A DNA stretch of 64,000 nucleotides from Paecilomyces variotii (Eukaryota): assembly GCA_004022145.1 (NCBI GenBank), contig RCNU01000016.1; one strand, 5' to 3'. The position numbers and the translations under genes were made by a program. The notes under the pieces are model-generated. The model did not search any database and was not told the DNA's origin. It saw only the letters and a list, made by a program, of their open reading frames with translations. Every line of letters begins with the position of its first letter. Within the stretch, counting starts at the first letter, position 1. This document shows, piece by piece, positions 15,110-46,806 of the stretch.

Positions 15110-18100
15110 CGCTAGGCTAAGACTAATAAGTTTATATATTAATTAACTTAGGGGTAAGCTATATATTTATATTAAAAAGGCTACTTACTAAGAAATAATA
15201 GGTTTATTAAAGAGGGTAAGTAAATTCTCTTAATATTAAGCTACTAAATAGAGAATTAATAACTATAAAGTTAAATACTTAATTACTCTTAAAGATTAAA
15301 AGATAAACTAATTTAATCTACGCCTAGAAGATTAATATATATAATTATAATTTAATCTTAGGGCGAAACTAATTATAAAAAGTTAATCTTAATATTAATT
15401 AAAAAACTTTATAAATATATATCTGCAATAAATAAAGGTATTTTTATATTCTAGATCTTATTAATATAAGATAAACCTTAAAGAAAATACTCTTATTACT
15501 CTTAAATATAATATTAATAGTATAAATATTATAAATATTATAAAAGAAATTAATAGAAATAGTATTATAGCTAATTTAACTAATTAAAATAGGAATAAAC
15601 ATTAAACTTATTAAGATAAGTAATTTAAGACTAAAAGTCTTACTATAATAGTTTTACAAGGTCTTTTAAATAAAACTACTACTAGCTTTATTACTTAATA
15701 AAGAATTTAAGTATAATATTAAGATAGAAGATACTTAACCTATTAATATTAATTCCTATCCTCTATTATATACTTATATAGAGAAATTAAAATAATAAAT
15801 TAAAGAGCTATTAGCTAAGAGGCTAATATAATTCTTAATAAGCCTATAAGGCTTTTTAATACTCTTTATAAAGAAACTTAAAGGAAAATAGTAAATATAT
15901 ATTAATTATTAAGCCTTTAATAAGGTATTAATAAAGAATAAATATTTATTATTAAGAATTTAAGAATTACTAGATATAATTAGCTTAGCTTAGTATTTAT
16001 TTAAGATTAACTTACTATTAAGATATTAGTAAATTTAAATAAAAGTATTATTAATTCTTAAGACTACTTTTAATACTATCTTTAAAAAATTTAAATAGCT
16101 AATAATATTATTTAGACTTATAAATACTCTAGTAACTTTTTAAATAATAATAAATATAGTATTATAGAAGTTTACTAACTAGTTTTATATAGTATATTTA
16201 AATAATATTCTAATCTTCTTATAAATATTAGAGGAGTATTATATATATATTAAGGCTATTTTATAAGTATTAAAGAATAACTAATTATATATAAAGCTTA
16301 GTAAATATATATTTTTAATACTAGAGTTAAAGTTTTATAAATATATTATTAATAATAGCTATATATAACTAATACTTAAGAAGATTAAGGCGATTATAAT
16401 ATAGCCTTAACTTAAAAATATATATAAAATATAATAATTCTTAAGACTAGTAATATATTATTAATAATTTATTAAGGACTTTTTTTAAATAGCTATTTTA
16501 TTATCTAATTTATTAAAGGAAGTAAATAAGATATTATATAAAAAAAAGTTTTATCTTATTATATAAAATATAATATATAAAGCTATTTCTCTTTATATTT
16601 AAACGGCTCTATTATTTAAGCCTATGCTTATATAATTAATTTATAAGAAACTATTTATTATTAAGATAAATGCCTTAGAATAAGCTATTAAAGATATATT
16701 AATATAGAAAAATAAAGGAAATATAATATATTCTATTATATTTAATAGGTAAAAGTTAAATAATATAGAATTTAATTACTCTATATATAAGAAAGAATTA
16801 TTAGTAATTAAGTATATATTTTAGCTTTAAAATTAGTATATTAATAATAATATAATAATAATAATTCTTATAGACTATAAGAGCTTATAATACCTTTAAT
16901 TAATTAGAATATACTTAAAATACTTAGTAAAATAAGTATTAAAGTTTTAAGAATATAATCTAGATATTTAATACTATAGAAGATTTAAGGCTATTATACT
17001 AAATACTATTAGCTACTAGCTTAACTTTATAAAGAATTAGCTAATAAATATTATAGAATTAATAGCTTAATTAGCTATAATATATAGAGTATTTAAGGAT
17101 AAATAAGTTATTACTATAATTAAATTCTATAAGAAAGAAATAGTCTTTAAAAAGAATTAACTTGCAAAATTAATTAAAGAAGAAGCTTTAAGGTTTAAAA
17201 TATTAACTCTAGAGTTAATTTTTAAATAATATCCTTATATAGAGATATAAGAATAAGAAGAAGGCGCCTTACCTAGAACTACTATTTAAACGCGATTTAA
17301 TATACTAAATATATAATAAGTTTAATTACTTAAAATACTTAAGATTAAAAGATATTCTCTATATATAAATATAGTAGCTAAATATATAAAAGGATATATA
17401 AAATTATATAGTAACTTATTTAAACTATTAAGTTACTTAATACCTATAATAGTTACTAGAAAGAGAAAAAGCTTAATATTAAATAAAGATAAGTATCTTA
17501 CTATTTAAGAGATAAGAAATTAACTTAATTAAATAATTACTTATAATACTTAATAGTAATTATTAAATAATTATAGTAATTAATTATACTATAAATTAGC
17601 TAATTATAGTAATTAATTATACTATAAATTAGCTAATTATAAAGACTTTATTAAATATAATAAAAAAAGTAATTATATAATTTCTTTATAATAAAATCTA
17701 TATTAATTATAATACTTTATATAAAATTCTTATTAATAATAATTATAATCTGCTTATAAGAGTAATATAATACTATCTTAAGCTATTAAAGACTAGATAT
17801 AAGATAATAATATTATAATATCTATATATAAATAATAAGGTAAAAAACTTAAATAGTATATTAAGATAAATATTAATAAAATATCTCTTAGAGAAATTAA
17901 CCTGCCTATAAGATAAGTATTTCCTATAAATAATCTTTGCAATAAAAATTAAAAAACATATAATATCTAATATTAGCTTATTTTACTTAATATATAAGAT
18001 ATACTTATAAATTCTAAGTAATAAGATTAATATATTAAATAAAGAGTAATTAATTAAGAATAGTAATAAGCGCCTATAGAGAGTAAACTATATATAATTA

Positions 18101-34849: not shown

Positions 34850-37325
34850 TATTTAAGATAAACTATTTACTATTATATACTTCTATTTAAGAATATGCTT
34901 AATAGTAAAATTAAATAAATAAATCTATATAAGCTAACTAGTAATTAAAGTATTAGGGAGATTTATAGCTAATTTATTTAGTTATACTACTAGAGTTTAA
35001 GTATTAACCTTAAGCTTAAAATAAATTCTATACAGCTAATAATAAAACTTCTTAAATATCTTTAGAACTATTTTATATTCTCTCTTTCTTATATTATACT
35101 TCTTCTCTATATTATTTTATATACTAGACTTATATTTAATAGAATAATACTTATTTTACTATTTTTATATAATAATAGCTTTAAAGCCTTTCTTATTTAT
35201 ATCTATAGCAATAATAATATTAAGTAAGTCCTAGATATAGTTAATAGAGATAATTACCTAGTCGCTTATAAAAAGCTACTTAATCTCCTTAAAGGCCGCT
35301 TACTGCTTTTTACCCTAGATTTATTCTACTCTTATTTAAAATAAATAATAAAAAGGCGCTATAATAATTCTATACTATAATATAAGAGCTTTAAAGTAAA
35401 AAGCTAATCTAAGAAATAAGTAAATTTAGTTTATACTAATACGCATAGGCTATTCTATAACCTTTTAAACTTTCTCTTTATCTATATAGTAGCTAGAATA
35501 GTTATATAATTATTCTACTATCTTTAAACCGGCTATAGTAAATTAGGACTTTTTAATAGATATAATTGCTTCAGCGAGCTTAAGAAGGTAAAGAATATAG
35601 TTAAGATTCTGAAGATATTCTAATATATATAGGCATATACTAAGAAATACTTCTTTATTATTATATTTTAAATAAGAACCTTTAATATTTATATTATCTA
35701 AGAAGATTTTAATAATCTTAAGTAAAGCTTCTAGTAGAATAAATATTATAATATACTTAATCTGCCTAATAGAGTTTATAGTACTCTAAAGAATTATTAC
35801 TTAATATAAAAGCTTAAGTAGAGTTTAAATAACTATTATATCTTTATCTTCTAGGGTAAGAGTAATTTAATTATATCCTAAAAGTAAATTAATAAGCAAG
35901 CTTAAAGATAGGCTATTAAAATCCTTAGCAAATTTATCGATATTTAGAGATATATTTATATTATAGACTATTACTTTATTAATCTATATAGCAGCGTTAA
36001 TAAGCCTATACTTACTATTCTTCTTCTTAATTAGAAACTATAGGTTCTAGTATAAACTATAATACTATTTAAGAATCCTATTTTAAAGTCTTTTATATAA
36101 TATTTAAGCTATAATTTCCTTAAGCGCTTAAAGCGGCTAAAATCTAGGGATTTACTATATTTTATATAAAATAGTCCTAATGTATTATAATAAAGCAATC
36201 TTAGGATAAATTCTCTTAATATCTTCTATAGACTATTTTAAAACTCCTTTTCTCTTATAAAGTAATTCTAATAATATAGCTCTTTTATTCTCTAAAAGTT
36301 CTATACCTATAATTAATTATTCTGCTTATTTAAGAATTAAATAAAACTCTTATATAATTATTATAATTCGCAGCTGTAAATATTTATTATATAGTATTTC
36401 TATATCTAGTATTAAGTTCTTATAATAGTATTCTAAGTACAGCTTCTGCTATCTTAAATCTCCTCTAAGTATTTCCCCGCTATTTAATCCCCCTAGGTTA
36501 ATAGGGTTTACCTTATTAGCCTTTTACTTCCTTAGTATATTAACTGCTATATAAATATAGTTATAATAGCTTATCTATAGCTTAAGGTCTAATTACTTTA
36601 ATATTCTATACTTAATACTTAAGTCTATAAGATTTAAGCGGTAAAGGAATTTTACTAGACTATTCTTAACCTCTAATTAATTAACTAATTTTACAGGTTA
36701 TAACCTATAAAATCTTAATAAATTAGAAGTCCGCATTTTTATAGTTATATATTTTACTCTAATTGCTTTAACCTAGATATATAAGCTTATTAATATTTTT
36801 ATTACTGCTTCTCTTTATCTTTTAGCAGATACTATATTAGTAAAATAATATTTACTTAAGCTTTTAAAGACTTTAGCTAAATATTCTTTATTATCTTAAT
36901 ATTTTAATTAGTTAGTCTATACTTAATAAACTTAAAGCAGTTATTTTAAATCTCTCTATAGATATAATAGAGAATAGTTCTATTATTAAGAGTTTCTATT
37001 ATAAGCTTTAACTTTACTTACTAGAGATATCTAAGAATATAATCTATATTACTTATAGATATAATAAGAATAAGAGATTATATAATAATATAACTAATAG
37101 TAATAGGTATATTCTTATAATACTCTATACAGTTTATAATAGTCTGTATTTAGACTATTATTAAGCAGTTTAAACCTAGAATTATAGGTAGGCTAAGATA
37201 TTAAATAAGCCCTAAGCTTATTATATTAATTTTAGAACTTATATTAAAAATAATATATACTCTTTTCTTATTAATTATTACTATAGTCTTTAATATCTTA
37301 ATTATATATATAGTTTCCTTATTAT
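34850..37325 (-). pseudogene. pol: C1 gag end, protease, RT and RNase H start
   Basis: De-RIP RT motifs on the minus strand, IFLDD at 35707-35693. Confidence 0.8.
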
Positions 37326-37330
37326 ATATT

Positions 37331-37485
37331 TGTCATAGAGACAAACCCCTAGACCTCGGGTCACGTGACTTGCCAGTCACGTAATACATCATGTGACTTC
37401 CTGTACTTAGACCTACTAGATCTTAGGATCTCTTCTAATTCTCTAATGAGAATAACTTTAGCATTAATCCCTTTACCCTACATTA
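37331..37485 (+). repeat. 5' LTR of D
   Basis: Matches 44991-45145 apart from C>T/G>A changes. Confidence 0.96.
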
Positions 37486-37487
37486 TT

Positions 37488-37498
37488 TTATTCTCATT
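37488..37498 (+). promoter_or_regulatory. Self-priming PBS (Tf1/sushi type)
   Basis: TTATTCTCATT is the exact reverse complement of AATGAGAATAA at 37445-37455 in the LTR; no TGG tRNA PBS. Confidence 0.75.
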
Positions 37499-37789
37499 TG
37501 TTTATTTTTTTTTATTAACTGTGACGTACTTATTAGAGAAACCTTAAGACTTAGCTTAAAAACTACGGACGATTATATCCAGCTACCGGAGACCTTGTAG
37601 TATAATAAAGGACTACGGCCGACTATAAAGCAATACTTACGGTAATTAACTATAACTTTTTATAGTGAATTATAGGAGTTAATAGTTAACTATAGACTCG
37701 CTATTAATAAACAGCAGTAAAACTAGGCTATAAATAATAAGACTCTGTCAGGACAATTCTATAATTACAATAAGATTAGGCAAAATAGC

Positions 37790-39035
37790 TATATAAAACC
37801 CAGGGCAGATCTAGATCTTAGAGAATACTGCAGGATAAGGACTATCTTAATAACAATAAGCAATACTAGGCAATAATAATACAGACAATAATAATAACAC
37901 TAATATTAGGCAATAAGGAATATCTTCTTTAGCAGGAATACAGGACTAGGGTTCTTTAACTAATAATATTATTATAAGAGCTACTGAGTTAGTAAGGCAG
38001 CTACAGGAGGGCGAGGCCGCAGCCGGATAAACTATAACAAACTAATAGACCCAACTACAGCAAAGTAACGCAATTTAAGAACTGCAATGGCAGTTAGATA
38101 TAATCATACAAAATTAACAGGCGCAGTTATTGAGTAATTAAAAATTATCGAATTAATCTGAACATACCAGCAGTTATAGATCTGGGACGACCTCATCCTT
38201 AGCATTATTAAGGAAACCTAAACTACAGCGCCCTAAGCTATTTGACGGCTTATCGGAGGAACTACATTACTAGATAGTAGAATTTGAGGAGTAGTTAGAT
38301 AATAAAGGACTTCACAATACTAAAGAATATGCCTCCTATTTATACTCTTATATAAAGGGTTAGATTAAATAACGGCTGACAATACTGAAAATTAATAACC
38401 TTAAGAATTTAATCTTTATAAACTACGCACTACTCTAGAAATAGTTGCTCGACTACTATAGGCCGGCAAATACCGACATTACAGCGGTATAGAAGATGTT
38501 TAAACTTCAACAATACTATAACTAGCCGCTACAAGATTTTATTAACAATTTTGAAATAATTATGGCGGACCTGGATTAGAATAATACTACCCTGAGTAAT
38601 GCGTTTAGTCGCAAGCTAATACCATAGATCGCTTAAGAGATTTATTAAGGCTACTTCGCCTATTCACTAGCCTTATATGCCAAATAGAAGCGCGCAGCAC
38701 AATAAGCAGAGTTATATATCTAGGAGGATTGGAGGCGCACAGAGTCTTCTCTATATAGATAAAGAGGGCGCGGCTGGATAGGGAGATAATATAATACTAG
38801 GAGTTAATTACTATAACAGGAGCTATAAGAGTTATTATAGCGGGGCCGCAGACAGAATTAATATTACCTATTTTAACCATCCAGGAGCAATAAGAAGTAT
38901 ATATTACTTAATAAGGAGTAGAAGAGACAACAAAATAAGGGCCTATATCTATATTATAGCGAGAAAGGCTATTGGGAAAAGTAATGCCTTAAGGCTTTCT
39001 AGCTGTTAGAGGCCTCCTCTACCCTAAAAAACTAA
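37790..39035 (+). pseudogene. gag: gag of D
   Basis: De-RIP RPKLFDG, CCHC knuckle CLYCSEKGHWEKQC at about 38945-38987, followed by slippery AAAAAAC at about 39026-39032. Start approximate. Confidence 0.75.
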
Positions 39036-42000
39036 AAGGGGGGGCAAGGAGACAGGCCTACTCCCCCTCTAATAGGCCCAACACCAGTTGGCTTATATTA
39101 TTACTAGAACTGACCGTCAGTACCAATATTAAGATTAACGCTTTATCCTTATATATCTCTCCTAATATGCGACTTACTATTACTATCTTAGTGATAACTC
39201 TGCTTTAATTAAATTATATAACTATATTAACAGCACTTATCGATAATAGCGCGGATGCCAACTGTTTAAATACAGCCATTATAGGCAGAATCAAGGGCTT
39301 ACAGCTAATGCTAAGTCCCTTATTACTTCTAAGCATCTCCGACATAAATAATATCCAGTTAGCACCGGCAACTAAACACTACTTTAAACTTTACTACACA
39401 ATACTTAGCAAAGAGATAGAACTGCACGCGTTTCACGCGATCCTTATATCATTCAACCTAATACTAGGACTATTATGGTTAACAGCGATAAACCCGTTGA
39501 TAGACTAAGAATAGAGATAAGTGTCTTAACAACTAGTTAAAAGACAGCGACCGGAGGAAGATCCTGACTTAGTCAAAGAGGATAACTCTAGAGAAGGATT
39601 TATATTAACGCGAAGGGTTAAGTTGCTTCTAGCAGCGATAAATTTATAGGATAAGGAGGATATTAAAACCATAGAGATACCTAAATAGTACATAGACTTA
39701 GCGAGAGTATTTAGCAAATCAGAGGCAAAGGCCCTATTTCTACAGCGACCGGGGATTAACTATAAGATCTATCTTGTGGAAGGAGCAACAATACCCTATA
39801 GGCCTTATTATTACCTTTCTGAGCAGGAATTAGAAATACTTAATGAGTTTTTTGACGATAGCTTATACTATGGAATTATCTGATTATTTATAGCTCTTTG
39901 TAGATTACCACTGCTATTTATGCTAAAAGACAAAGATAGTAAAGGTATAGATATAAGATAAGCACGCAGGATAGACCCGGACCGGAAAAAGCTAAACCTA
40001 TAACTATGCGCAGACTATTAAGCGCTTAATAAACGCACCTTAAAGAATAGATACCCAGTGCCGACTATAGATAATCTCTTCCTTTAGATTAGGGGGGCTA
40101 AGGTGTTCATAAGGTTAGACTTGCGCTCGGCCTATTACCTTATCCGGATTATAGAGGGCTACAAGTAGAAAACAGCCTTTTATATTAAGAGGGGCTTATT
40201 TAAATAGTTAGTAATGCCATTTGGGCTTTGCAACGCACCAGCGACTTTTTAAGCCTTTATTAATAGTATACTCCACGAATATATTAATAAGTACTGTATT
40301 ATATACTTAGACGACATATTAATATTCAGCATAAACAAATAAGATTATACTATATATGTCCGGGCGGTTCTATAGAGTCTGCTAAATAACCACCTATTTT
40401 ATAAATTAGAGAAATGCTTATTTTTAGTAATAAGGGTTATATTTCTAGGATTTGTAATAATAATAAAAGGAATGGCTATAGATACTTACCGGTCAGACAT
40501 AATCACTAGCTGGCTAACGCCTACCTCCACATCGGCCTTAGTTTATTTCCTGGGGTTCGCCAACTTTTATAGGCGATTTATTTGTCACTATAGTAGGATT
40601 GTTTTACCACTAATAAGGCTTACTAAACAGAATGTGCCTTTTATTTGGGACTATAACACAGAGATTAGTTTTAAAGAGCTGAAGGAATAATTTACAAAAG
40701 CCCTATTACTGCGCCATTTTAACTTACTTAGGCTAAGGATCCTAGAAACAGACGCTAGTGGCTTTGCGCGATCGGCTATATTAAGCCAAGTTTTTGAAGA
40801 TAGAGAACAGCACCTAGTAGCATTCTACAGCATAAAGTTCACCAACGCAGAATTATGTTGGCCGATATATAAATAAGAACTATTTACTATAGTGGATGTA
40901 TTTAAAGTATGGCGACATTTCTTAATCGGTACTAATAAGCCGGTCGAAGTGCTTACCAATCACAACAATCTCAAGCATTTCCTAACAATAAGGATCTTGA
41001 CAAGGAAATAAGCAAGATAGGCCGAATACCTCGGACAGTTCTACTTCTGCATCAGACATAGACCAGGGAAGAAAAATCCCGCAGATAGACCTTCTTAAAG
41101 GGATAATTATAAATTACCGCAGACACCGTATAACATATTAATACAACTACTTTAACTAGGGGCGACATATTGTAGAGAGGGACGACGACATATACAGGTG
41201 ATAATAATGGAATTATATAAGGATAATATAACCGCGACCGATAACCCGGCCGCCCCTAGACCTTTTTTATGGGACAGGATTAAGTAAAGCTATAATAACG
41301 ATACCAAAGCAGTAGTAAACTCTTAGCCTGATGTATACTGGGATAATAATAATAAGGTCTATTACTATAACAGAACTAAAGTCTGCATACTAATAATAGA
41401 CTTATAAACAGATATACTTAAACAATTTTATAACTCCCGCTCTGGAGGCTATTTTAGCCAGGAGGCAATTATAGACAGAATCTGCAAATAGTTATTTTAG
41501 CCAAACCTAGCTAAGATAGTAGAAGACTATATATAAGAGTGCCTGGCATGCCAGAGGTCGAAGGCAGCCCGTATAATATATGGAAAGCCCACTGCACTTC
41601 CAGTTCCCAACAGACTATAGGACTATATAGCTGTAGACTTTATAACAGGGTTACCAGAGAGCACTAATATACATAGACTAGAGTATTCAATTATATTAGT
41701 TTTCATTGACCGTTTTAGTTACATAGCGCACTTTACAGCCTGCGCTGCGGATATCAACTCGATAACATTTATATATCTTTATATTAATGCTGTGTATAAA
41801 ATCCACAGCCTTTAGACGTTTATTATTTCGGATAGGGGCTCCCTATTTATATTCTTATTCTGGATAACACTATCGAAGGCATTAGATGTCAATTATTGAC
41901 TCTCTACGGCTTTCTATCTACAGACAGATAGTGCAACAGAGAGACTAAACCAGACACTAGAACAGTACCTGCGAGTGTTCACTAATTAAAAACAGAATGA

Positions 42001-42760
42001 CTGGGCGCGACTACTACTACTAGCAGAATACGCATATAATAATACCAGAAGAACAGTAACGGGACTATTCCCATTCTTTGTATGCTACAATTGTCACCCT
42101 AAACCACCATCGCTGACAGAAGTTCCTGTAAATGGGGAACCAAATATGTAAAAATTCGCAGAAGACATGACGTCACTATATAAGGACCTTGTTGATTACT
42201 TACTCCACTTATAAGATTGCGCGTTAGAACGCCAACCGGGATACCCCATATAGTTTGAGATAGGGGACAAGGTCTTATTAAACACAAAATACCTCAGAAT
42301 AGATAGGCCTAGCAAGAAATTAGACAGTAAAAGGCAAGGCCTATTTAAGGTTATCGCAAAAGTCAGTTCTCAAGCATATAGATTGAAACTCCCAGCGACA
42401 TACTGGATATACCCTGTCTTCCATATTTCTTTGCTGTCACCTTAGAAGACAAGCGAGCTATACTAAGAACTACAGCCAGAGCCACCGGTCTAAGTCACAG
42501 ATGATTTAGGTTAACATAAAGAATGGGAGGTAGAGAAAATCCTTGATGCGAAGGGGAGGGACCGCACACTGAAGTATCTTATTAAGTGGAAAGGTTATGG
42601 GGACCAGGAGAATACATAGGAGCCTGCACGTCACCTTCAGAATGCTCCAGAGGCGTTATGCTAATACTGGGTTTTGGCGAAGAAGTTATCGCATGCTCTA
42701 GAAGCTATTAAGAAGTTCTACAAAGAGCACCCTTTTATACCGGGTCTATATGACAATTGA
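39030..42760 (+). pseudogene. pol: pol of D (PR-RT-RH-IN-chromodomain)
   Basis: ALID protease motif, YLDD at 40304-40315, ETDAS, integrase zinc finger and core, GPF, chromodomain EWEVEKILD...YLIKWKGY...NTWEP at about 42521-42630, TGA at 42758-42760. The track ORFs 39308 and 40472 are fragments of it. Confidence 0.93.
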
Positions 42761-42774
42761 ATTTGCGTCAAATA

Positions 42775-43062
42775 AGCTAAGCATAGAAGTGCTATTTATA
42801 AGAGACAGAGGGATAAAGAGCTAAGCGTAATATATGCTATTTAGGGCTACAGACAGTTAGCTGAGCAGATTACTGCTATTTAGAGCTATATTAAGCTAAG
42901 CATAGATACTACTATTTAGAGCTACAATAATATAATACTTTCACTTAAAAGATAAGCATCAGTGCTGTTTAGATCCACATATAAGACTAGACTAGAGATA
43001 CTTTTGCTTAAAAGATAAGCATTAGTACTGTTTAGATCTACATATAAGCCTAGACTAGAGAC
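42775..43062 (+). repeat. Array of 6 degenerate short hairpin repeats between pol and ORF3 of D
   Basis: Units AG(C/A)TRAGC-variable 5-8 nt-TRCTRTTTA starting at 42775, 42819, 42859, 42894, 42950 and 43013; the last two lie in a ~63 bp duplication. Confidence 0.8.
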
Positions 43063-43214
43063 AAGTAAATAGATGCTAAGAGAATTGCTTAGTTAAATCT
43101 CACTTTTAGAGTCCTCTTACCATAAGAAACTCTACTACTAACTATCCTAACTAGCCTCTGTAATAGGATTAGGTAAACAATTTCATCCAGGTAGAGCGAG
43201 TTACTTAATAATAC

Positions 43215-44615
43215 ATGATGGAATTAAACAGTAGGTAGGACTCTGAGGATAACGCACCTATAAACAAAAGGGATACATTCTATCCTATCAATAAATTCAC
43301 TGATGAGATAAGCAGTTAAGCTCAATAACTGATCAGACAGCTACCAGAATCTAATATCCTTATCCTAACTTTATAGAAATATGCCTTACTAATAGTATGC
43401 CATATATACACCAACACCCGCAGAGGACCGCGAGAAATCAGTTCAGAAACTATATATGAGGCACTCTTACTGATCCGGAATGGAGGTTAGATACCTCAGA
43501 TATAACCCGTTAAACCTCTTCTACTAAAGAGATTTAAGACTCGACACAGAGTCCGCATAGGCAAAATCAGGAAGAACTGCCTGGTGAGCCTTAAACGCAT
43601 AAAGAATTAGAGGCGACGGAAAGACCAGGCCGTCGAAAAAGGACATCTTATACCTTATAAACCACGCACGCTGGCACACCAGAAGGCAGGAAGTAATGTG
43701 TACATACAGGTCACGCGGGGGGCTCCTAAATTATATACATATTAGTTTGTTAATCATCAAGGACAAATAGTACCCCCGGCAAATATTCTAGAAGAAGAGA
43801 ATGTTACAGACATTATGGTCGAGTTAGCATTAGCTAATAATAATAAAGAAATCCATAGGATAACAGCTCACAATAAGAAACTGTGGACCTTTACAGTTAG
43901 AGAATATCTTTTTTTTGAATAAGGGGGAACTGCAGAGAGGGATTACCTCAACTTCATTATACCGGACGTTAAAGCACTAAATATGCAGCATTTCGCGTTA
44001 ACAATTACTAATAGACTGGGTGGAGATCAGCAAACAACAGAGACACTAACAGGTAAGACTAGACCACCGCTGGTTACAATTGAGAACAATGTAGAGGAAC
44101 TAATCCTAGATACCCTAAACACCGCAAGTAGCATATTAGGGGCAGATAGCACAATGACGCTGGACAATATTACAATCATCAACGATATCAAGAACACCGA
44201 TAATAGGAATGACTAAAACTAGCAAGTTCCCGACACATATATCTGGGATAACAGTCCTCTAGACATATTAAACAACAGTTCGCCAGCGACTGTGGAAGAC
44301 AATAACAGAGTTAATAATGCAGAGATAAAGTTAGAACAACTTACCCACCGGACTATCCCAATTATCAACTTAACATCGGAACTAGAGACTATATTAACAG
44401 ACATAAATATTAATTCTAAACATACAATAAAAACCGAACGGGACATTGCAGCACTAGTTATTAACCTCACCAATGATAAACCCATTAAGAGGGAGGCTGC
44501 TTATAATCTAACTATCTCGTGGAATAAAAACCGCAGAAAAGTTATCAAATTAGAGGAACTGGATATTTCCGAAGCTATCTCCCTACTTGAGAACTTGGCC
44601 AAGAAGGGAGACTGA
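43215..44615 (+). pseudogene. Extra ORF3 of D, 466 codons, unknown protein
   Basis: ATG 43215 is in frame with track ORFs 43983-44216 and 44292-44615. About 11 internal stops, all TAA/TAG (RIP type); terminal stop is TGA. Confidence 0.85.
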
Positions 44616-44990
44616 AGCGACTGGATATTTATAGAAGAAGCGACAGGATACTGGCGAAGAAGAAGCGGCTTAATATTTATAGGGTATTCTTCCTGTAAAT
44701 TTTTTCTTTTAGATAGTGTTACTTGAGACGGCTCTGCTTACCCTTTTAATATTCCCTTATTATATTCTTCTAACATTATATTTCTCTTGCCTGCGGCTGC
44801 ATTTGGTAATATTTCCCCTGCATACTGCCTTGATTTAAAATGTTAATTGCAGCTATTATAGTATCCCACGGGGACCTATAAAGCAGTATGGCGTTTAGAG
44901 GCGTGTGACAGTATTCTGTAATATACTATGGTTTTAGATTTAACTTCTAAGACCTGCGTAAGCGCAGGCCCCTTTAAGAGGGGGGGTGAA

Positions 44991-45145
44991 TGTCATAGAG
45001 ACAAACCCCCAGACCTCGGGTCACGTGACTTGCCAGTCACGTGACACATCATGTGACTTCCTGTACTTAGACCTACTAGATCTTAGGATCTCTTCTAATC
45101 CTCTAATAAGAATGACTTCGGCATTAACCCCTTTACCCCACGTCA
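44991..45145 (+). repeat. 3' LTR of D
   Basis: TGTCATAGAG...CCCACGTCA followed by TSD ATATT. Confidence 0.96.
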
Positions 45146-45150
45146 ATATT

Positions 45151-46806
45151 AGTAATATATATTCTCTAAGAAGTTTTTAGCCTATAACTTTTACTTTAAT
45201 ATCTATTCTCTTTATATTAAATTTAGAAGAGAATATAACTTTAGCATTTAGGAATAATATTTAAAAAAGGCATAATAAATAGCAGAATAGCTACTAAATA
45301 ACTCTTATATAGTTAGATTAAAGATAGGCTAATTAAGGACCTTATTCAGAAGAGTATTAGTGTTTATTAAGTTCTTAAGCTTATAGAATAGCCTATTAGG
45401 TATACTTCTTATATTTAGCTTAGCTTTTAGTCTATTAGATTATATAGGAATAGGCTTTATATTCTCTATAGTTATATCTTCTATATAGATATTATTTGCT
45501 AGACCTTTTATAGTCGCCTTAGGTAGTTTTTAAGAAGACTATATCTTAATATAATAGCTCTTAACGGCAGGATAAGTACTAATCTAAGAAGCTTTAGAAG
45601 TTAATCTTAGTATAGTAAATTTTATATTACTTAATAGGCTATAATACTATCTTTATTACTATTTCCCTATTCTTTATCTATATTATTAACCTTATTATTT
45701 TATTTAAGGATTAAGCTAATTAGAGTAAATTAAAATTAGATATAAGCTTAAATTATAGGCTTATTATTTTAAATAGCTTCTTGTATAATTTTAATTAGCT
45801 TTCTATTATACTAGAAAGGAATTTTAGTACTTTTATTCTTAGCCTTACTAAAATAAATATATATTATTTCTAGGTATTAATAAATATATCTCTTATAGAT
45901 ATCTTTAAGGTAATTAAAATAATTATTAATTTTCTTATTAGGTTTTTTATAATAATAGTAAGTAGGCTCTACTTACTATTAATAAGATATAACTAAGATA
46001 ATATTTACTTCTATAGCAATATAGTATTCTTACTAATTCTATTTATCTTCTTATAATATAAGAGTTTTAATAAGTAAAAATAGAGCTTTAAATTAAGTAG
46101 CTAGGTTATTAACTATTTTATTTACTTCCTTATATATAATCTCTAATTAGCTTAGCTAGTAGTTAGGATTTAGCTATTATAGCTTTAGTTTAGCTAGAGA
46201 CTAATACTCTTTTATTATAATATTTAGATTCTTATCTTTCTTTTTAAGTTTAAAGAATTTATTAATATAATTATTTACAGTAATAATCTCTAAAACCTTT
46301 TATTTTATCTTATTAAACTTTACTTCTTCTAATTCTTTAAAGTCTATCTTAAGCTTCTCTACTACTTTCTTACTAAGCTTTTTAGGCAATTCTTAAAAAA
46401 ATTAGATACTGCAAGTATACTTATCTAGATAACCTTTCTTAAAGACTACCTTAGAGATACTTATATACTCTTAGATATAATCCTTTACTCTATTATCTTA
46501 GGCACGCTTCTTATTCTTATATACCTCTAGATACCTATAAGTATATACTTATTATTTAGTATTCTTCTTATAAAACTCCTTTTTAACTTTTTTATAGAAA
46601 GTCTCTTAGTCCTACTTAATATAGAATATAATTATCTTTATTTAATTATTAATTTAAATATTATAATATTTTAGCACTTAATAAAAGGTTTTATTATTCT
46701 TTCCTTTAAATCTATAATTTATATATAGGTTTATAAAGCAATTTAAAAAGTTAATAATATTCTTTCTATTAAAATAAGAAGCTCCTAATATACCTAATAA
46801 TAGCAT
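45151..46806 (-). pseudogene. gag: C1 gag 5' part
   Basis: De-RIP MPLPGTPGAPYFDGKNITDFL from ATG at 46806; the ORF may begin further upstream. Confidence 0.7.

What the first reader, a model, noticed from the sequence alone, without database searches (positions are those of the whole stretch)
43215..44615. Chromovirus D has a hidden 466 aa third ORF with an Arg/Lys-rich segment
Seen: the two short track ORFs are pieces of one frame from ATG 43215 to TGA 44615, broken only by RIP-type stops. It contains KRFKTRHRVRIGKIRKNCLVSLKRIKN.RRRK (about 43525-43620). I see no signal peptide or transmembrane segment, so it is not env-like, and it does not resemble the ORF3 of A or C. Known: fungal chromoviruses usually encode only gag and pol. 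Inference: an independent accessory gene, possibly nuclear or RNA binding.
Basis: partly seen in the sequence, partly recalled or inferred. Interest (0 to 1): 0.7.

Follow-up and report, generated by a model that had tools for sequence, protein, structure and literature searches.

The report
RIP-killed third gene of fungal retrotransposon
The stretch is a mutation-riddled copy of a real, previously undescribed third gene carried by a Paecilomyces variotii retrotransposon behind its usual gag and pol genes; intact copies exist in other strains, but what the protein does is still a guess.

Summary
Frame 43215/43218-44615 (+) has 11 internal stops, against 16-50 in the other five frames. It matches a 465-aa intact Paecilomyces variotii protein (P0018) end to end without gaps. 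All 89 of 465 differing codons are explained by C>T/G>A changes, and all 11 stops sit at W, Q or R of P0018.

The ORF belongs to the element. D is a complete 7815-bp chromovirus with 155-bp LTRs, a 5-bp ATATT target duplication and an empty-site junction seen in reads. In two other strains the ORF3 homolog carries the locus tag and accession directly after gag-pol, in a subfamily whose pol is only 59% identical.

The protein has no Pfam, PDB or Atlas match and folds poorly (pLDDT 38-42). It has no transmembrane segment, so it is not env-like. It has an invariant basic segment, an acidic disordered linker and two conserved SIMb-type (ψψDLT) motifs in its best-conserved C-terminal third.

Verdict: a genuine sense additional ORF, dead in this window. 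A nuclear, possibly SUMO-binding adaptor role is inference only. Additional ORFs in fungal Ty3/gypsy elements have precedents, so this is a new member of a known kind.

The parts
37326..37330 (.). Left copy of the 5-bp target-site duplication (ATATT).
   Evidence: The sequence was read. The empty-site joint 37325>45146 has 5 letters fitting either side (1 X3 contig, 107 X10 reads).
37331..37485 (+). 5' LTR, 155 bp, starting TG and ending in a RIP-changed CA.
   Evidence: It is a direct repeat of 44991-45141 at 93% identity. Boundaries come from the alignment and the joint.
37908..39023 (+). gag remnant, heavily RIP-mutated, in frame 0.
   Evidence: tblastn places P0145 residues 43-451 and P0144 residues 124-447 here at 45-52% identity. 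P0144 and P0145 carry Retrotrans_gag; their zf-CCHC_5 matches (21.4 and 19.8 bits) fall below Pfam's 27-bit cut-off. Pfam finds nothing in the window copy itself.
39209..42760 (+). pol remnant in frame 2 (PR-RT-RNaseH-IN-SH3-chromodomain), with stop TGA at 42758-42760. The chromodomain lies at about 42524-42670.
   Evidence: Pfam finds RVT_1, RT_RNaseH, Integrase_H2C2, SH3_Tf2-1 and Chromo. tblastn aligns P0024 and P0145 at 59% identity over 39218-42742.
42761..43214 (+). pol-ORF3 spacer. It holds six same-strand copies of YRCTRTTTAKR (42790-43036) and a 63-bp x2 tandem repeat (42935-43061). It is a candidate internal promoter or regulatory region (inference).
   Evidence: Supported. One X4 contig lacks one 63-bp unit.
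43215..44615 (+). ORF3, a sense additional ORF. The homolog's Met aligns to 43218. This copy is inactivated by RIP, with 11 nonsense changes and about 70 missense changes.
   Evidence: Supported.
43527..43622 (+). Arg/Lys-rich segment. It lies inside the run of residues invariant in all five sequences of alignment A3 (P0018 residues about 102-159).
   Evidence: Coordinates come, the invariant columns, and the net charge of +8 to +9 per 30 residues.
44361..44375 (+). SIMb-type motif 1. It reads IIDLT in P0018, P0019 and P0020 and IINLT in the window after RIP.
   Evidence: Supported. The motif definition is quoted from a passage of PMC3395311.
44457..44471 (+). SIMb-type motif 2. It reads VIDLT in P0018, P0019 and P0020 and VINLT in the window after RIP.
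   Evidence: Supported.
44616..44975 (+). Non-coding stretch between the ORF3 stop and the polypurine tract.
   Evidence: Seen.
44976..44990 (+). Polypurine tract (AAGAGGGGGGGTGAA), abutting the 3' LTR.
   Evidence: Seen.
44991..45145 (+). 3' LTR, 155 bp, running TG...CA.
   Evidence: Supported.
45146..45150 (.). Right copy of the target-site duplication (ATATT).
   Evidence: Supported.

Best explanation
**Shown.** 43215-44615 is a RIP-inactivated copy of a genuine third gene of a Paecilomyces variotii Ty3/gypsy chromovirus. It lies on the gag-pol strand between the pol stop and the polypurine tract. The 7.8-kb element transposed as one unit, with 155-bp LTRs and a 5-bp target duplication. The gag-pol-ORF3 order is kept in a second, diverged subfamily. 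The window copy cannot make protein.

**Inferred.** In intact copies the roughly 465-aa product is a non-enzymatic, soluble accessory protein.
- It has a helical N-terminal part followed by an invariant, strongly basic segment. That segment most likely serves as a nuclear-import signal and/or nucleic-acid contact.
- A long acidic disordered linker follows.
- The C-terminal third is the best-conserved part. It holds two SIMb-type SUMO-interaction motifs and a short strand-strand-helix module.

**Proposed role.** My working model is a nuclear adaptor that links the element's RNA, cDNA or integration complex to SUMO-marked chromatin. That could supplement the integrase chromodomain in targeting heterochromatin, or blunt SUMO-dependent silencing.

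**Proposed expression.** Expression probably comes from a promoter or splice acceptor in the repeat-rich 454-nt spacer upstream.

**Sub-confidences.** About 0.9 that this is a real element-encoded gene killed by RIP here. About 0.4 that the protein acts in the nucleus. About 0.15-0.2 that it binds SUMO and that this affects targeting or silencing.
For: **Homologs**
- phmmer against 1.84 billion representatives found 12 hits at E <= 0.001.
- Full-length intact homologs are P0018 (465 aa, 81% identity, 100% coverage, E 2.7e-241), P0019 (479 aa) and P0020 (534 aa). They were 3 of the 4 hits among 7579 candidates.

**RIP as the only difference**
- All 89 of 465 differing codons are explained by C>T/G>A, and the 11 stops fall at W, Q or R of P0018.
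- This frame has 11 stops; the other five frames have 16-50.

**One element**
- LTR pair at 93% identity.
- ATATT target duplication and an empty-site joint, seen in 1 X3 contig and 107 X10 reads.
- One 7680-bp X3 contig spans 37353-45032 with 49 differences and no gaps.
- GC is an even 0.33-0.47 across all parts of D, against 0.21 in both flanks.

**Linkage to pol elsewhere**
- DTO282F9_8887 (gag), _8888 (pol) and _8889 (ORF3) share one contig length and have consecutive accessions.
- DTO027B9_6525 (gag-pol, 1621 aa) and _6526 (ORF3) do likewise.

**Uneven conservation between subfamilies** (P0018 against P0019 and P0020)
- N-terminal helices: 48-49%.
- Basic segment: 71%.
- Strand and helix part: 69%.
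- Linker: 16-20%.
- C-terminal third: 87-89%.

**Motifs and physical character**
- Two SIMb matches occur in each of P0018, P0019 and P0020. At least two arose in 8 of 100,000 composition-preserving shuffles of P0018. The definition is quoted from PMC3395311.
- No hydrophobic stretch was found; the highest Kyte-Doolittle 19-residue mean is 0.8-1.0.
- Six of the window's 13 matches to an 11-nt motif cluster in 247 nt of the spacer, against 6.5 expected for the whole window.
Against: **No expression evidence.** No RNA holder was listed, and the one 'RNA?' run has genome-sized contigs.

**No recognisable fold or family**
- No Pfam family passed threshold.
- No PDB sequence match and no Atlas hit.
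- AlphaFold models are unreliable, with mean pLDDT 38.1 and 42.2.
- The best Foldseek E-value was 0.18.

**Narrow distribution**
- The family was found only in P. variotii and in unnamed Logan or JGI fragments, so there is no deep conservation to lean on.
- A metagenome locus scan found none.

**Weak points in the SIM reading**
- The SIM match is a short motif noticed after the fact.
- The high C-terminal identity could reflect recombination between subfamilies rather than selection.
- dN/dS could not be computed because no DNA of the intact copies was available.

**Other loose ends**
- P0018, the closest intact ORF3, had no P. variotii pol partner from its own strain among the listed pol hits. 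The best 120 of 1757 were shown, and only proteins of 650-2071 aa were searched. Its neighbouring pol may be broken or split.
- P0009, P0022 and P0023 are gene models that hold an ORF3 fragment outside any recognisable full element.
Confidence: 0.55

Rival explanations
1. ORF3 is a passenger. A host gene, or part of one, was transduced into the element before the two subfamilies split. It is carried along without any role in transposition.
For: - Sense-oriented inserts between pol and the 3' LTR are the usual outcome of retroelement gene capture (passage of PMC7264820).
- The family is confined to one species.
- Gene models P0009, P0022 and P0023 hold ORF3-like sequence joined to an unrelated N-terminus, on large contigs of up to 4.97 Mb.
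Against: - No full-length homolog outside the element context was found among 1.84 billion representatives or in the profile search.
- P0009-type models cover only the middle of ORF3 and look like remnants.
- The ORF is kept open (465-534 aa) in both subfamilies, whose pol proteins are only 59% identical (uncorrected for RIP in the window copy).
- Its C-terminal third, at 87-89% identity, is better conserved than that pol-wide 59%.
- A useless passenger would be expected to decay.
Confidence: 0.2
2. ORF3 is a Rev/Rex-like regulator. The arginine-rich segment binds the element's own RNA, and the protein promotes export or translation of unspliced genomic RNA rather than chromatin targeting.
For: - The invariant Arg/Lys-rich segment carries net +8 to +9 per 30 residues.
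- The gene sits downstream of pol, as retroviral accessory genes do (recalled knowledge, not from a call).
- The C-terminal helix is rich in leucine and isoleucine.
Against: - No sequence or fold similarity to any such protein was found.
- No candidate RNA response element was identified.
- This reading leaves the two conserved DLT motifs unexplained.
Confidence: 0.1
3. The ORF belongs to a different mobile element, or is a separate gene, that landed inside D by nested insertion. It is not part of D.
For: Nested insertions are common in RIP-affected, AT-rich regions such as this window (general knowledge). The 2.2 kb between pol and the polypurine tract is unusually long.
Against: - No terminal repeats or extra target duplication flank it.
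- GC and RIP indices match the rest of D.
- The same pol-ORF3 order recurs in two other strains and in a diverged subfamily.
- Contigs in other runs join the spacer, ORF3 and the 3' LTR.
Confidence: 0.03
4. It is not a gene. The frame is open by chance, and the database proteins are gene-prediction artefacts on repeat DNA.
For: - All database members are 'hypothetical protein' calls with no experimental support.
- The antisense frame is also fairly open, with 16 stops.
Against: - Three uninterrupted ORFs of 465-534 aa occur in three strains at 64-65% identity to each other across subfamilies.
- Conservation is strongly uneven along the protein.
- Every window stop sits at a W, Q or R codon of the intact copy.
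Confidence: 0.02

Closest known systems
Sense additional ORFs (aORF-3S) between pol and the 3' LTR of plant LTR retrotransposons (review PMC7264820; abstract and passages read).
   Same: The position (after pol, before the polypurine tract and 3' LTR) and the orientation match. The ORF is present in several copies and subfamilies of the element rather than in a single copy. The function is unknown.
   Different: The plant sense aORFs are mostly env-like, with transmembrane segments. This protein has none. It is basic, then acidic and disordered. The host is a fungus, and no sequence similarity was detected.
brtn, the additional antisense gene of Boty-like Ty3/gypsy elements in Botrytis cinerea (Zhao et al. 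2011, seen only as cited in passages of PMC8365987 and PMC7264820).
   Same: It is a fungal Ty3/gypsy element with an extra gene of unknown function between pol and the 3' LTR.
   Different: brtn is antisense, whereas this ORF is sense. No brtn sequence was on hand, so similarity was not tested.
'add. ORF' drawn for fungal chromodomain-containing Gypsy elements in Novikova et al. 2010 (PMC2864245; figure legend and passages read).
   Same: It is a fungal chromovirus with an additional ORF of unknown function.
   Different: Only the legend was seen. Which elements those are, where their ORFs lie, and whether they are related to this one is unknown to me.
Tn123, the 'Tf2-type' retrotransposon of P. 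variotii used to document RIP (PMC6300479; abstract and passages read).
   Same: It is from the same species, is a Ty3/Tf2-like element, and has RIP-affected copies that form regions of about 20% GC like this window.
   Different: Tn123 is given as 7,091 bp (231,587-238,677), against 7,815 bp here. The passages I read mention no third ORF. Whether Tn123 and D belong to one family could not be tested because no sequence was available.
SIM-bearing SUMO-binding proteins (SIMb consensus (PILVM)-(ILVM)-D-L-T; passage of PMC3395311).
   Same: There are two exact SIMb matches followed by acidic or phosphorylatable residues. They lie in an acidic disordered region and are conserved in all three intact homologs.
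   Different: This is a motif-level resemblance only. No binding has been shown, and the rest of the protein resembles no known SUMO-binding protein.

Membership tests
Chromovirus (Ty3/gypsy LTR retrotransposon with an integrase chromodomain) | Two LTRs in direct orientation, flanked by a short target-site duplication. | tested here: met
   The LTRs are 155 bp and 93% identical over the aligned 151 nt. ATATT lies on both sides, and an empty-site joint was seen.
Chromovirus (Ty3/gypsy LTR retrotransposon with an integrase chromodomain) | pol domain order RT - RNase H - integrase, with a C-terminal chromodomain. | tested here: met
   Pfam finds RVT_1, RT_RNaseH, Integrase_H2C2, SH3_Tf2-1 and Chromo in that order in the window copy. 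The intact relative P0145 shows the same order.
Chromovirus (Ty3/gypsy LTR retrotransposon with an integrase chromodomain) | gag with a zinc knuckle, upstream of pol. | tested here: inconclusive
   Pfam finds nothing in the RIP-affected window copy. tblastn maps the gag of P0144 and P0145 to 37908-39023. In those relatives Retrotrans_gag passes its cut-off, but the zf-CCHC_5 matches (21.4 and 19.8 bits) fall below the curated 27 bits.
Additional ORF of an LTR retrotransposon (aORF, sense, 3' of pol) | It lies between the pol stop and the polypurine tract or 3' LTR, on the gag-pol strand. | tested here: met
   The pol stop is at 42758-42760, ORF3 at 43215-44615 and the polypurine tract at 44976-44990, all on the + strand.
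Additional ORF of an LTR retrotransposon (aORF, sense, 3' of pol) | It is present in most copies or subfamilies of the element, not in a single copy. | tested here: met
   It lies next to gag-pol in two further strains, in a subfamily whose pol is 59% identical. Contigs of two other runs join the spacer, ORF3 and LTR. The total number of family copies examined is small.
Additional ORF of an LTR retrotransposon (aORF, sense, 3' of pol) | It is expressed, from a subgenomic or spliced mRNA or from an internal promoter. | not testable with these tools
Retroviral or errantiviral env-like protein | A signal peptide and at least one transmembrane segment. | tested here: not met
   The highest Kyte-Doolittle 19-residue mean is 0.8-1.0, and the true N-terminus is acidic, in P0018, P0019 and P0020. 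This was a simple hydropathy check, not a dedicated predictor.
SUMO-binding protein (SIM-containing) | A SIM consensus, here SIMb (PILVM)(ILVM)DLT, with acidic flanks. | tested here: met
   IIDLTSE and VIDLTDD occur in P0018, P0019 and P0020. At least two matches arose in 8 of 100,000 shuffles. In the window both are changed to NLT by RIP.
SUMO-binding protein (SIM-containing) | Physical binding to SUMO. | not testable with these tools
   No fungal SUMO sequence could be supplied to the complex predictor, and no job was sent.
RIP-mutated repeat | Differences from an unmutated copy are only C>T/G>A, with a CpA/TpG bias. | tested here: met
   All 89 differing codons are explained by such transitions, and 10 of 11 stops are one-step CpA>TpA or TpG>TpA changes. 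RIP in this species is documented experimentally (PMC6300479 passages). The comparison was codon against protein, not DNA against DNA.

The most novel reading that the evidence does not exclude
ORF3 is a retrotransposon-encoded SUMO-binding nuclear adaptor. Its basic segment holds the element's nucleic acid or pre-integration complex, and its two SIMb motifs dock onto SUMOylated heterochromatin or centromere proteins. Together with the integrase chromodomain, this would steer insertions into RIP-affected, gene-free AT-rich blocks such as this window, or shield new copies from SUMO-dependent silencing. That would be a second, separately encoded targeting or anti-silencing module in a chromovirus.
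Probability: 0.15. Interest if true: 0.75.

Novelty: new member of a known kind. Interest (0 to 1): 0.45.

Why it matters
LTR retrotransposons are usually treated as gag-pol machines. Extra genes that persist across subfamilies point to functions the element needs, such as targeting, nuclear entry, RNA handling or escape from silencing, and these are almost entirely uncharacterised. Here the extra gene is clearly real and has natural intact copies. It sits in P. variotii, a fungus that can be transformed and crossed and in which RIP is experimentally active (PMC6300479). Its role is therefore directly testable. For annotation, it shows that some 'hypothetical proteins' in P. variotii strain genomes are retrotransposon genes. 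It also shows that RIP-affected AT-rich blocks can be decoded by comparison with intact copies in other strains.

Tried and rejected
**Whole-genome search.** No genome is held for this window.

**Other copies in the window.** blastn found only the LTR pair. tblastn found only the D locus.

**Family and fold searches on ORF3**
- Pfam on the window ORF3 with X at the stops, and on the antisense ORF, gave 0 families.
- Pfam on the intact homologs gave only sub-threshold noise: DUF787 at 12.5 bits against a cut-off of 25, and Ribosomal_L22 at 12.1 bits against 28.
- A profile search of PDB sequences gave 0 matches at E <= 1.
- The ESM Atlas gave no usable hit.
- AlphaFold2 on a 5-row alignment and on a 19-row alignment gave mean pLDDT 38.1 and 42.2.
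- Foldseek against the PDB with the second model gave a best E-value of 0.18, which means nothing for such a model. No further fold searches were sent.

**Metagenome loci.** 124 pattern matches were found, but none was confirmed by tblastn.

**Expression**
- No RNA holder was listed.
- Run X6 is labelled 'RNA?' only as a guess and has 31.8 Mb of contigs, about genome size.
- X6 gave five small pieces, four of them exact. I do not count this as evidence of transcription either way.

**Earlier scan notes.** Three look-ups returned nothing.

**Literature**
- Searches for a sense third ORF in fungal chromoviruses turned up only the precedents already named.
- Supplements were not consulted. In particular, Fig. 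S1 of PMC8365987, which draws additional ORFs in Botrytis elements, was not seen.

**Not attempted**
- dN/dS between subfamilies could not be computed, because no DNA of the intact copies could be fetched.
- No complex prediction was sent, because no fungal SUMO sequence could be supplied.

**Early doubt, now rejected.** I first suspected the true ORF starts near 43400, because the frame is stop-rich before that point. The gapless alignment to P0018 from 43218 rules this out.
Full report
**1. The observation**

The window is extremely AT-rich, with GC of 0.14-0.29 over most of it. One block, at about 38000-45000, has GC of 0.36-0.40.

Translating 43215-44615 (+) gives 466 codons with 11 internal stops and a terminal TGA. 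Over the same span the other five frames have 39, 47, 31, 16 and 50 stops.

A 200-nt binning showed that most of this frame's stops lie before about 43400. Homology removed that doubt, as described in section 2.

The quoted Arg/Lys-rich string lies at 43527-43622.

**2. Is it a gene?**

A phmmer search of the read-through translation, with X at each stop, covered 1.84 billion cluster representatives. It gave 12 hits at E <= 0.001, of which 8 were at <= 1e-10 and 2 at <= 1e-30.

A length-matched search returned 4 hits among 7579 candidates. Three are full-length and uninterrupted:
- P0018: 465 aa, 81% identity, 100% coverage, E 2.7e-241.
- P0019: 479 aa, 53% identity.
- P0020: 534 aa, 51% identity.

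All three are 'hypothetical protein' entries from different Paecilomyces variotii strains.

tblastn aligns P0018 residues 1-465 to 43218-44612 without a gap. A codon-by-codon comparison over that span gives:
- 376 of 465 positions have the same residue.
- Of the 89 that differ, 81 are reachable from P0018's residue by C>T/G>A changes in the window.
- The other 8 are reachable by the same kind of change in the P0018 lineage.
- None needs any other substitution.
- The 11 stops sit at 3 W, 7 Q and 1 R of P0018.
- Ten of the 11 are one-step CpA>TpA or TpG>TpA changes.

RIP with exactly this signature has been shown experimentally in P. variotii. That fungus's genome has RIP-affected blocks of about 20% GC (PMC6300479, abstract and passages).

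The window copy is a RIP-killed version of a gene that was essentially P0018.

**3. Does it belong to the retrotransposon?**

Element boundaries:
- Direct repeats at 37331-37481 and 44991-45141 are 93% identical.
- Reads and contigs from other runs show a joint from 37325 to 45146. It skips 7820 bases, and 5 letters fit either side. It was seen in 1 X3 contig and 107 X10 reads.
- The sequence shows ATATT at 37326-37330 and again at 45146-45150.
- The LTRs are 155 bp each, running TG...CA.
- AAGAGGGGGGGTGAA abuts the 3' LTR as the polypurine tract.
- The element is therefore 37331-45145, or 7815 bp, and it inserted as one unit into an older repeat of 21% GC.

Internal structure:
- pol, read with X at the stops, carries RVT_1, RT_RNaseH, Integrase_H2C2, SH3_Tf2-1 and Chromo. 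It ends at TGA 42758-42760.
- gag maps to 37908-39023 by tblastn with intact relatives.
- ORF3 lies 454 nt after the pol stop and ends 360 nt before the polypurine tract.
- GC is even across the parts of D, at 0.33-0.47, and the RIP indices are broadly alike.
- No repeats flank ORF3 on their own.

Evidence from other runs:
- A single 7680-bp contig of run X3 covers 37353-45032 with 49 differences and no gaps.
- X4 has one contig over 42871-45062 with 23 differences. It has a second, more diverged contig over 42876-43723 with 132 differences, which lacks one 63-bp repeat unit.

Linkage in annotated strains:
- Searching with D's pol gave 1757 hits at E <= 1e-50, of which the best 120 were listed.
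- The top hit, P0024 (59% identity, 98% coverage), is DTO282F9_8888. The ORF3 homolog P0019 is DTO282F9_8889, on a contig of the same length.
- The 90% cluster of P0024 also holds DTO282F9_8887 (449 aa, gag) and DTO027B9_6525 (1621 aa, gag-pol). P0020 is DTO027B9_6526. Accessions are consecutive in both strains.
- Pfam confirms Retrotrans_gag and the full pol set with chromodomain in these relatives. The zf-CCHC_5 matches are below Pfam's cut-off.

The order gag, pol, ORF3 is thus kept in a subfamily whose pol is only 59% identical to D's RIP-affected pol. Nested insertion and chance are effectively excluded.

**4. What is the protein?**

Searches that found nothing recognisable:
- No Pfam family passed threshold.
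- No PDB sequence matched at E <= 1.
- The Atlas gave no usable hit.
- Two AlphaFold2 runs gave mean pLDDT 38.1 and 42.2.
- A Foldseek search with the second model had a best E-value of 0.18.

The fold is therefore unknown. The sequence itself shows the following:
- An acidic N-terminus and no hydrophobic stretch. The highest Kyte-Doolittle 19-residue mean is 0.8-1.0. It is not env-like.
- Predicted helices over about residues 30-90 in both models.
- A basic segment, P0018 residues about 100-160, with net +8 to +9 per 30 residues. It holds nearly all columns that are invariant in the five-sequence alignment.
- A strand and helix region, residues about 160-270.
- An acidic, polar linker, probably disordered, that varies in length.
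- A C-terminal third with two exact matches to the SIMb SUMO-interaction consensus, (PILVM)(ILVM)DLT, followed by acidic residues. They are IIDLTSE and VIDLTDD, present in all three intact proteins. The consensus is quoted from a passage of PMC3395311.
- A final strand-strand-helix module, the only C-terminal part with pLDDT above 50.

Two or more SIMb matches arose in 8 of 100,000 composition-preserving shuffles of P0018. I noticed the motif after looking, so this number overstates its significance.

Identity between subfamilies, P0018 against P0019 and P0020, is uneven:

| Region | Identity |
|---|---|
| N-terminal helices | 48-49% |
| Basic segment | 71% |
| Strand and helix part | 69% |
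| Linker | 16-20% |
| C-terminal third | 87-89% |

This pattern fits selection on the basic segment and the SIM-bearing C-terminus. Recombination between subfamilies could also produce the C-terminal peak.

**5. How it most likely works**

Shown: this is a real, element-linked, sense additional ORF that is dead in this window.

Inferred: the product is a soluble, non-enzymatic nuclear adaptor. The basic segment would serve nuclear import and/or nucleic-acid binding. The SIM pair would dock onto SUMO-modified chromatin proteins. That would either reinforce chromodomain-guided insertion into heterochromatin, where D itself sits in a 21% GC RIP-affected block, or counter SUMO-dependent silencing.

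I put about 0.9 on the gene being real and element-encoded. I put about 0.4 on nuclear action and 0.15-0.2 on a SUMO-linked role.

Expression is untested. The 454-nt spacer is notable for three features:
- It holds 6 of the window's 13 matches to YRCTRTTTAKR, all on the + strand, within 247 nt. About 6.5 are expected for the whole window.
- It holds a 63-bp x2 tandem repeat.
- It has CTAAC-like and YAG motifs 40-75 nt upstream of the ATG.

An internal promoter or a splice acceptor are therefore both conceivable.

**6. Evidence against, and gaps**

- There is no expression evidence. No RNA holder was listed. The 'RNA?' run X6 has genome-sized contigs.
- The family was found only in P. variotii plus unnamed fragments. 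A metagenome scan confirmed none of 124 pattern matches.
- dN/dS could not be computed.
- P0018's own strain gave no pol partner among the listed hits.
- Gene models P0009, P0022 and P0023 join an unrelated N-terminus to an ORF3 middle fragment. I read these as a solo remnant beside a host gene. They keep a captured-gene origin formally open.

**7. Comparison with what is known**

- Additional ORFs between pol and the 3' LTR are reviewed for plants. The sense ones are mostly env-like and the antisense ones are of unknown function. Boty/brtn of Botrytis is named there as a fungal antisense case (PMC7264820 passages; PMC8365987 passages).
[quoted passage not shown] - A fungal LTR survey states that such elements usually encode two ORFs (PMC3248453).
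- P. variotii's Tn123 is described only as a Tf2-type element of 7,091 bp, with no mention of a third ORF in the passages I read.
- My full-text searches for a sense third ORF in fungal chromoviruses found nothing closer.

This is therefore a new member, and a new protein family, of a known kind of feature. It is not env-like, and it has an untested SUMO-motif angle.

**8. Verdict**

The interpretation as an independent accessory gene is supported. The proposed nuclear or RNA-binding role is plausible but unproven. Interest is moderate, at 0.45. The gene is real, unnamed and testable in a tractable fungus. The category is not new, however, and this copy is dead.

Noticed in passing
window 42790-43061: The pol-ORF3 spacer holds six same-strand copies of an 11-nt motif (YRCTRTTTAKR) within 247 nt. 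It also holds a 63-bp x2 tandem repeat. One contig of run X4 lacks one 63-bp unit. This is a possible internal promoter or enhancer, or an RNA element.
   Followed up: partly
window 43138-43180: CTAAC-like repeats (9-nt unit x2.2), followed by YAG, lie 40-75 nt upstream of the ORF3 ATG. They resemble a fungal branch point and acceptor. This would fit a spliced subgenomic mRNA but is untested.
   Followed up: no
proteins P0009, P0022, P0023 (P. variotii gene models, not in the window): These gene models join an unrelated N-terminus to a middle fragment of ORF3 that includes one VIDLT motif. They occur on large contigs of three strains, including the reference. They are probably a solo ORF3 remnant beside a host gene, but could hint at domestication or capture.
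   Followed up: partly
window 39209-42760 (pol of D): Apart from the P. variotii relatives at 59% identity, the best pol matches are only 32-38% identical over most of their length. They come from Closterium, Mucoromycota and metagenomes. The D family is therefore an isolated chromovirus lineage in this fungus. Horizontal origin was not examined.
   Followed up: no
window 37000-37325 and 45151-45400: D sits inside an older, far more RIP-affected repeat of 21% GC. In raw reads of run X10 the flanks reach about 150-200-fold summed depth, against roughly 6-80-fold inside D. The empty-site form of the flank exists in X10 and X3. The host repeat is therefore multi-copy, and D is low-copy or polymorphic.
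   Followed up: partly
window 37486-37530: No recognisable primer-binding site (TGG...) follows the 5' LTR. RIP may have erased it, or the element may prime differently.
   Followed up: no
window 15856-16809: A weak reverse-transcriptase-like match (23-28% identity to P0024 and P0145) marks another, much more degraded retroelement.
   Followed up: no
window 37908-39218: In D, gag is read in frame 0 and pol in frame 2. One intact relative is annotated as a single 1621-aa gag-pol and another as separate gag (449 aa) and pol (1140 aa). How gag and pol are coupled in this family is unclear.
   Followed up: no
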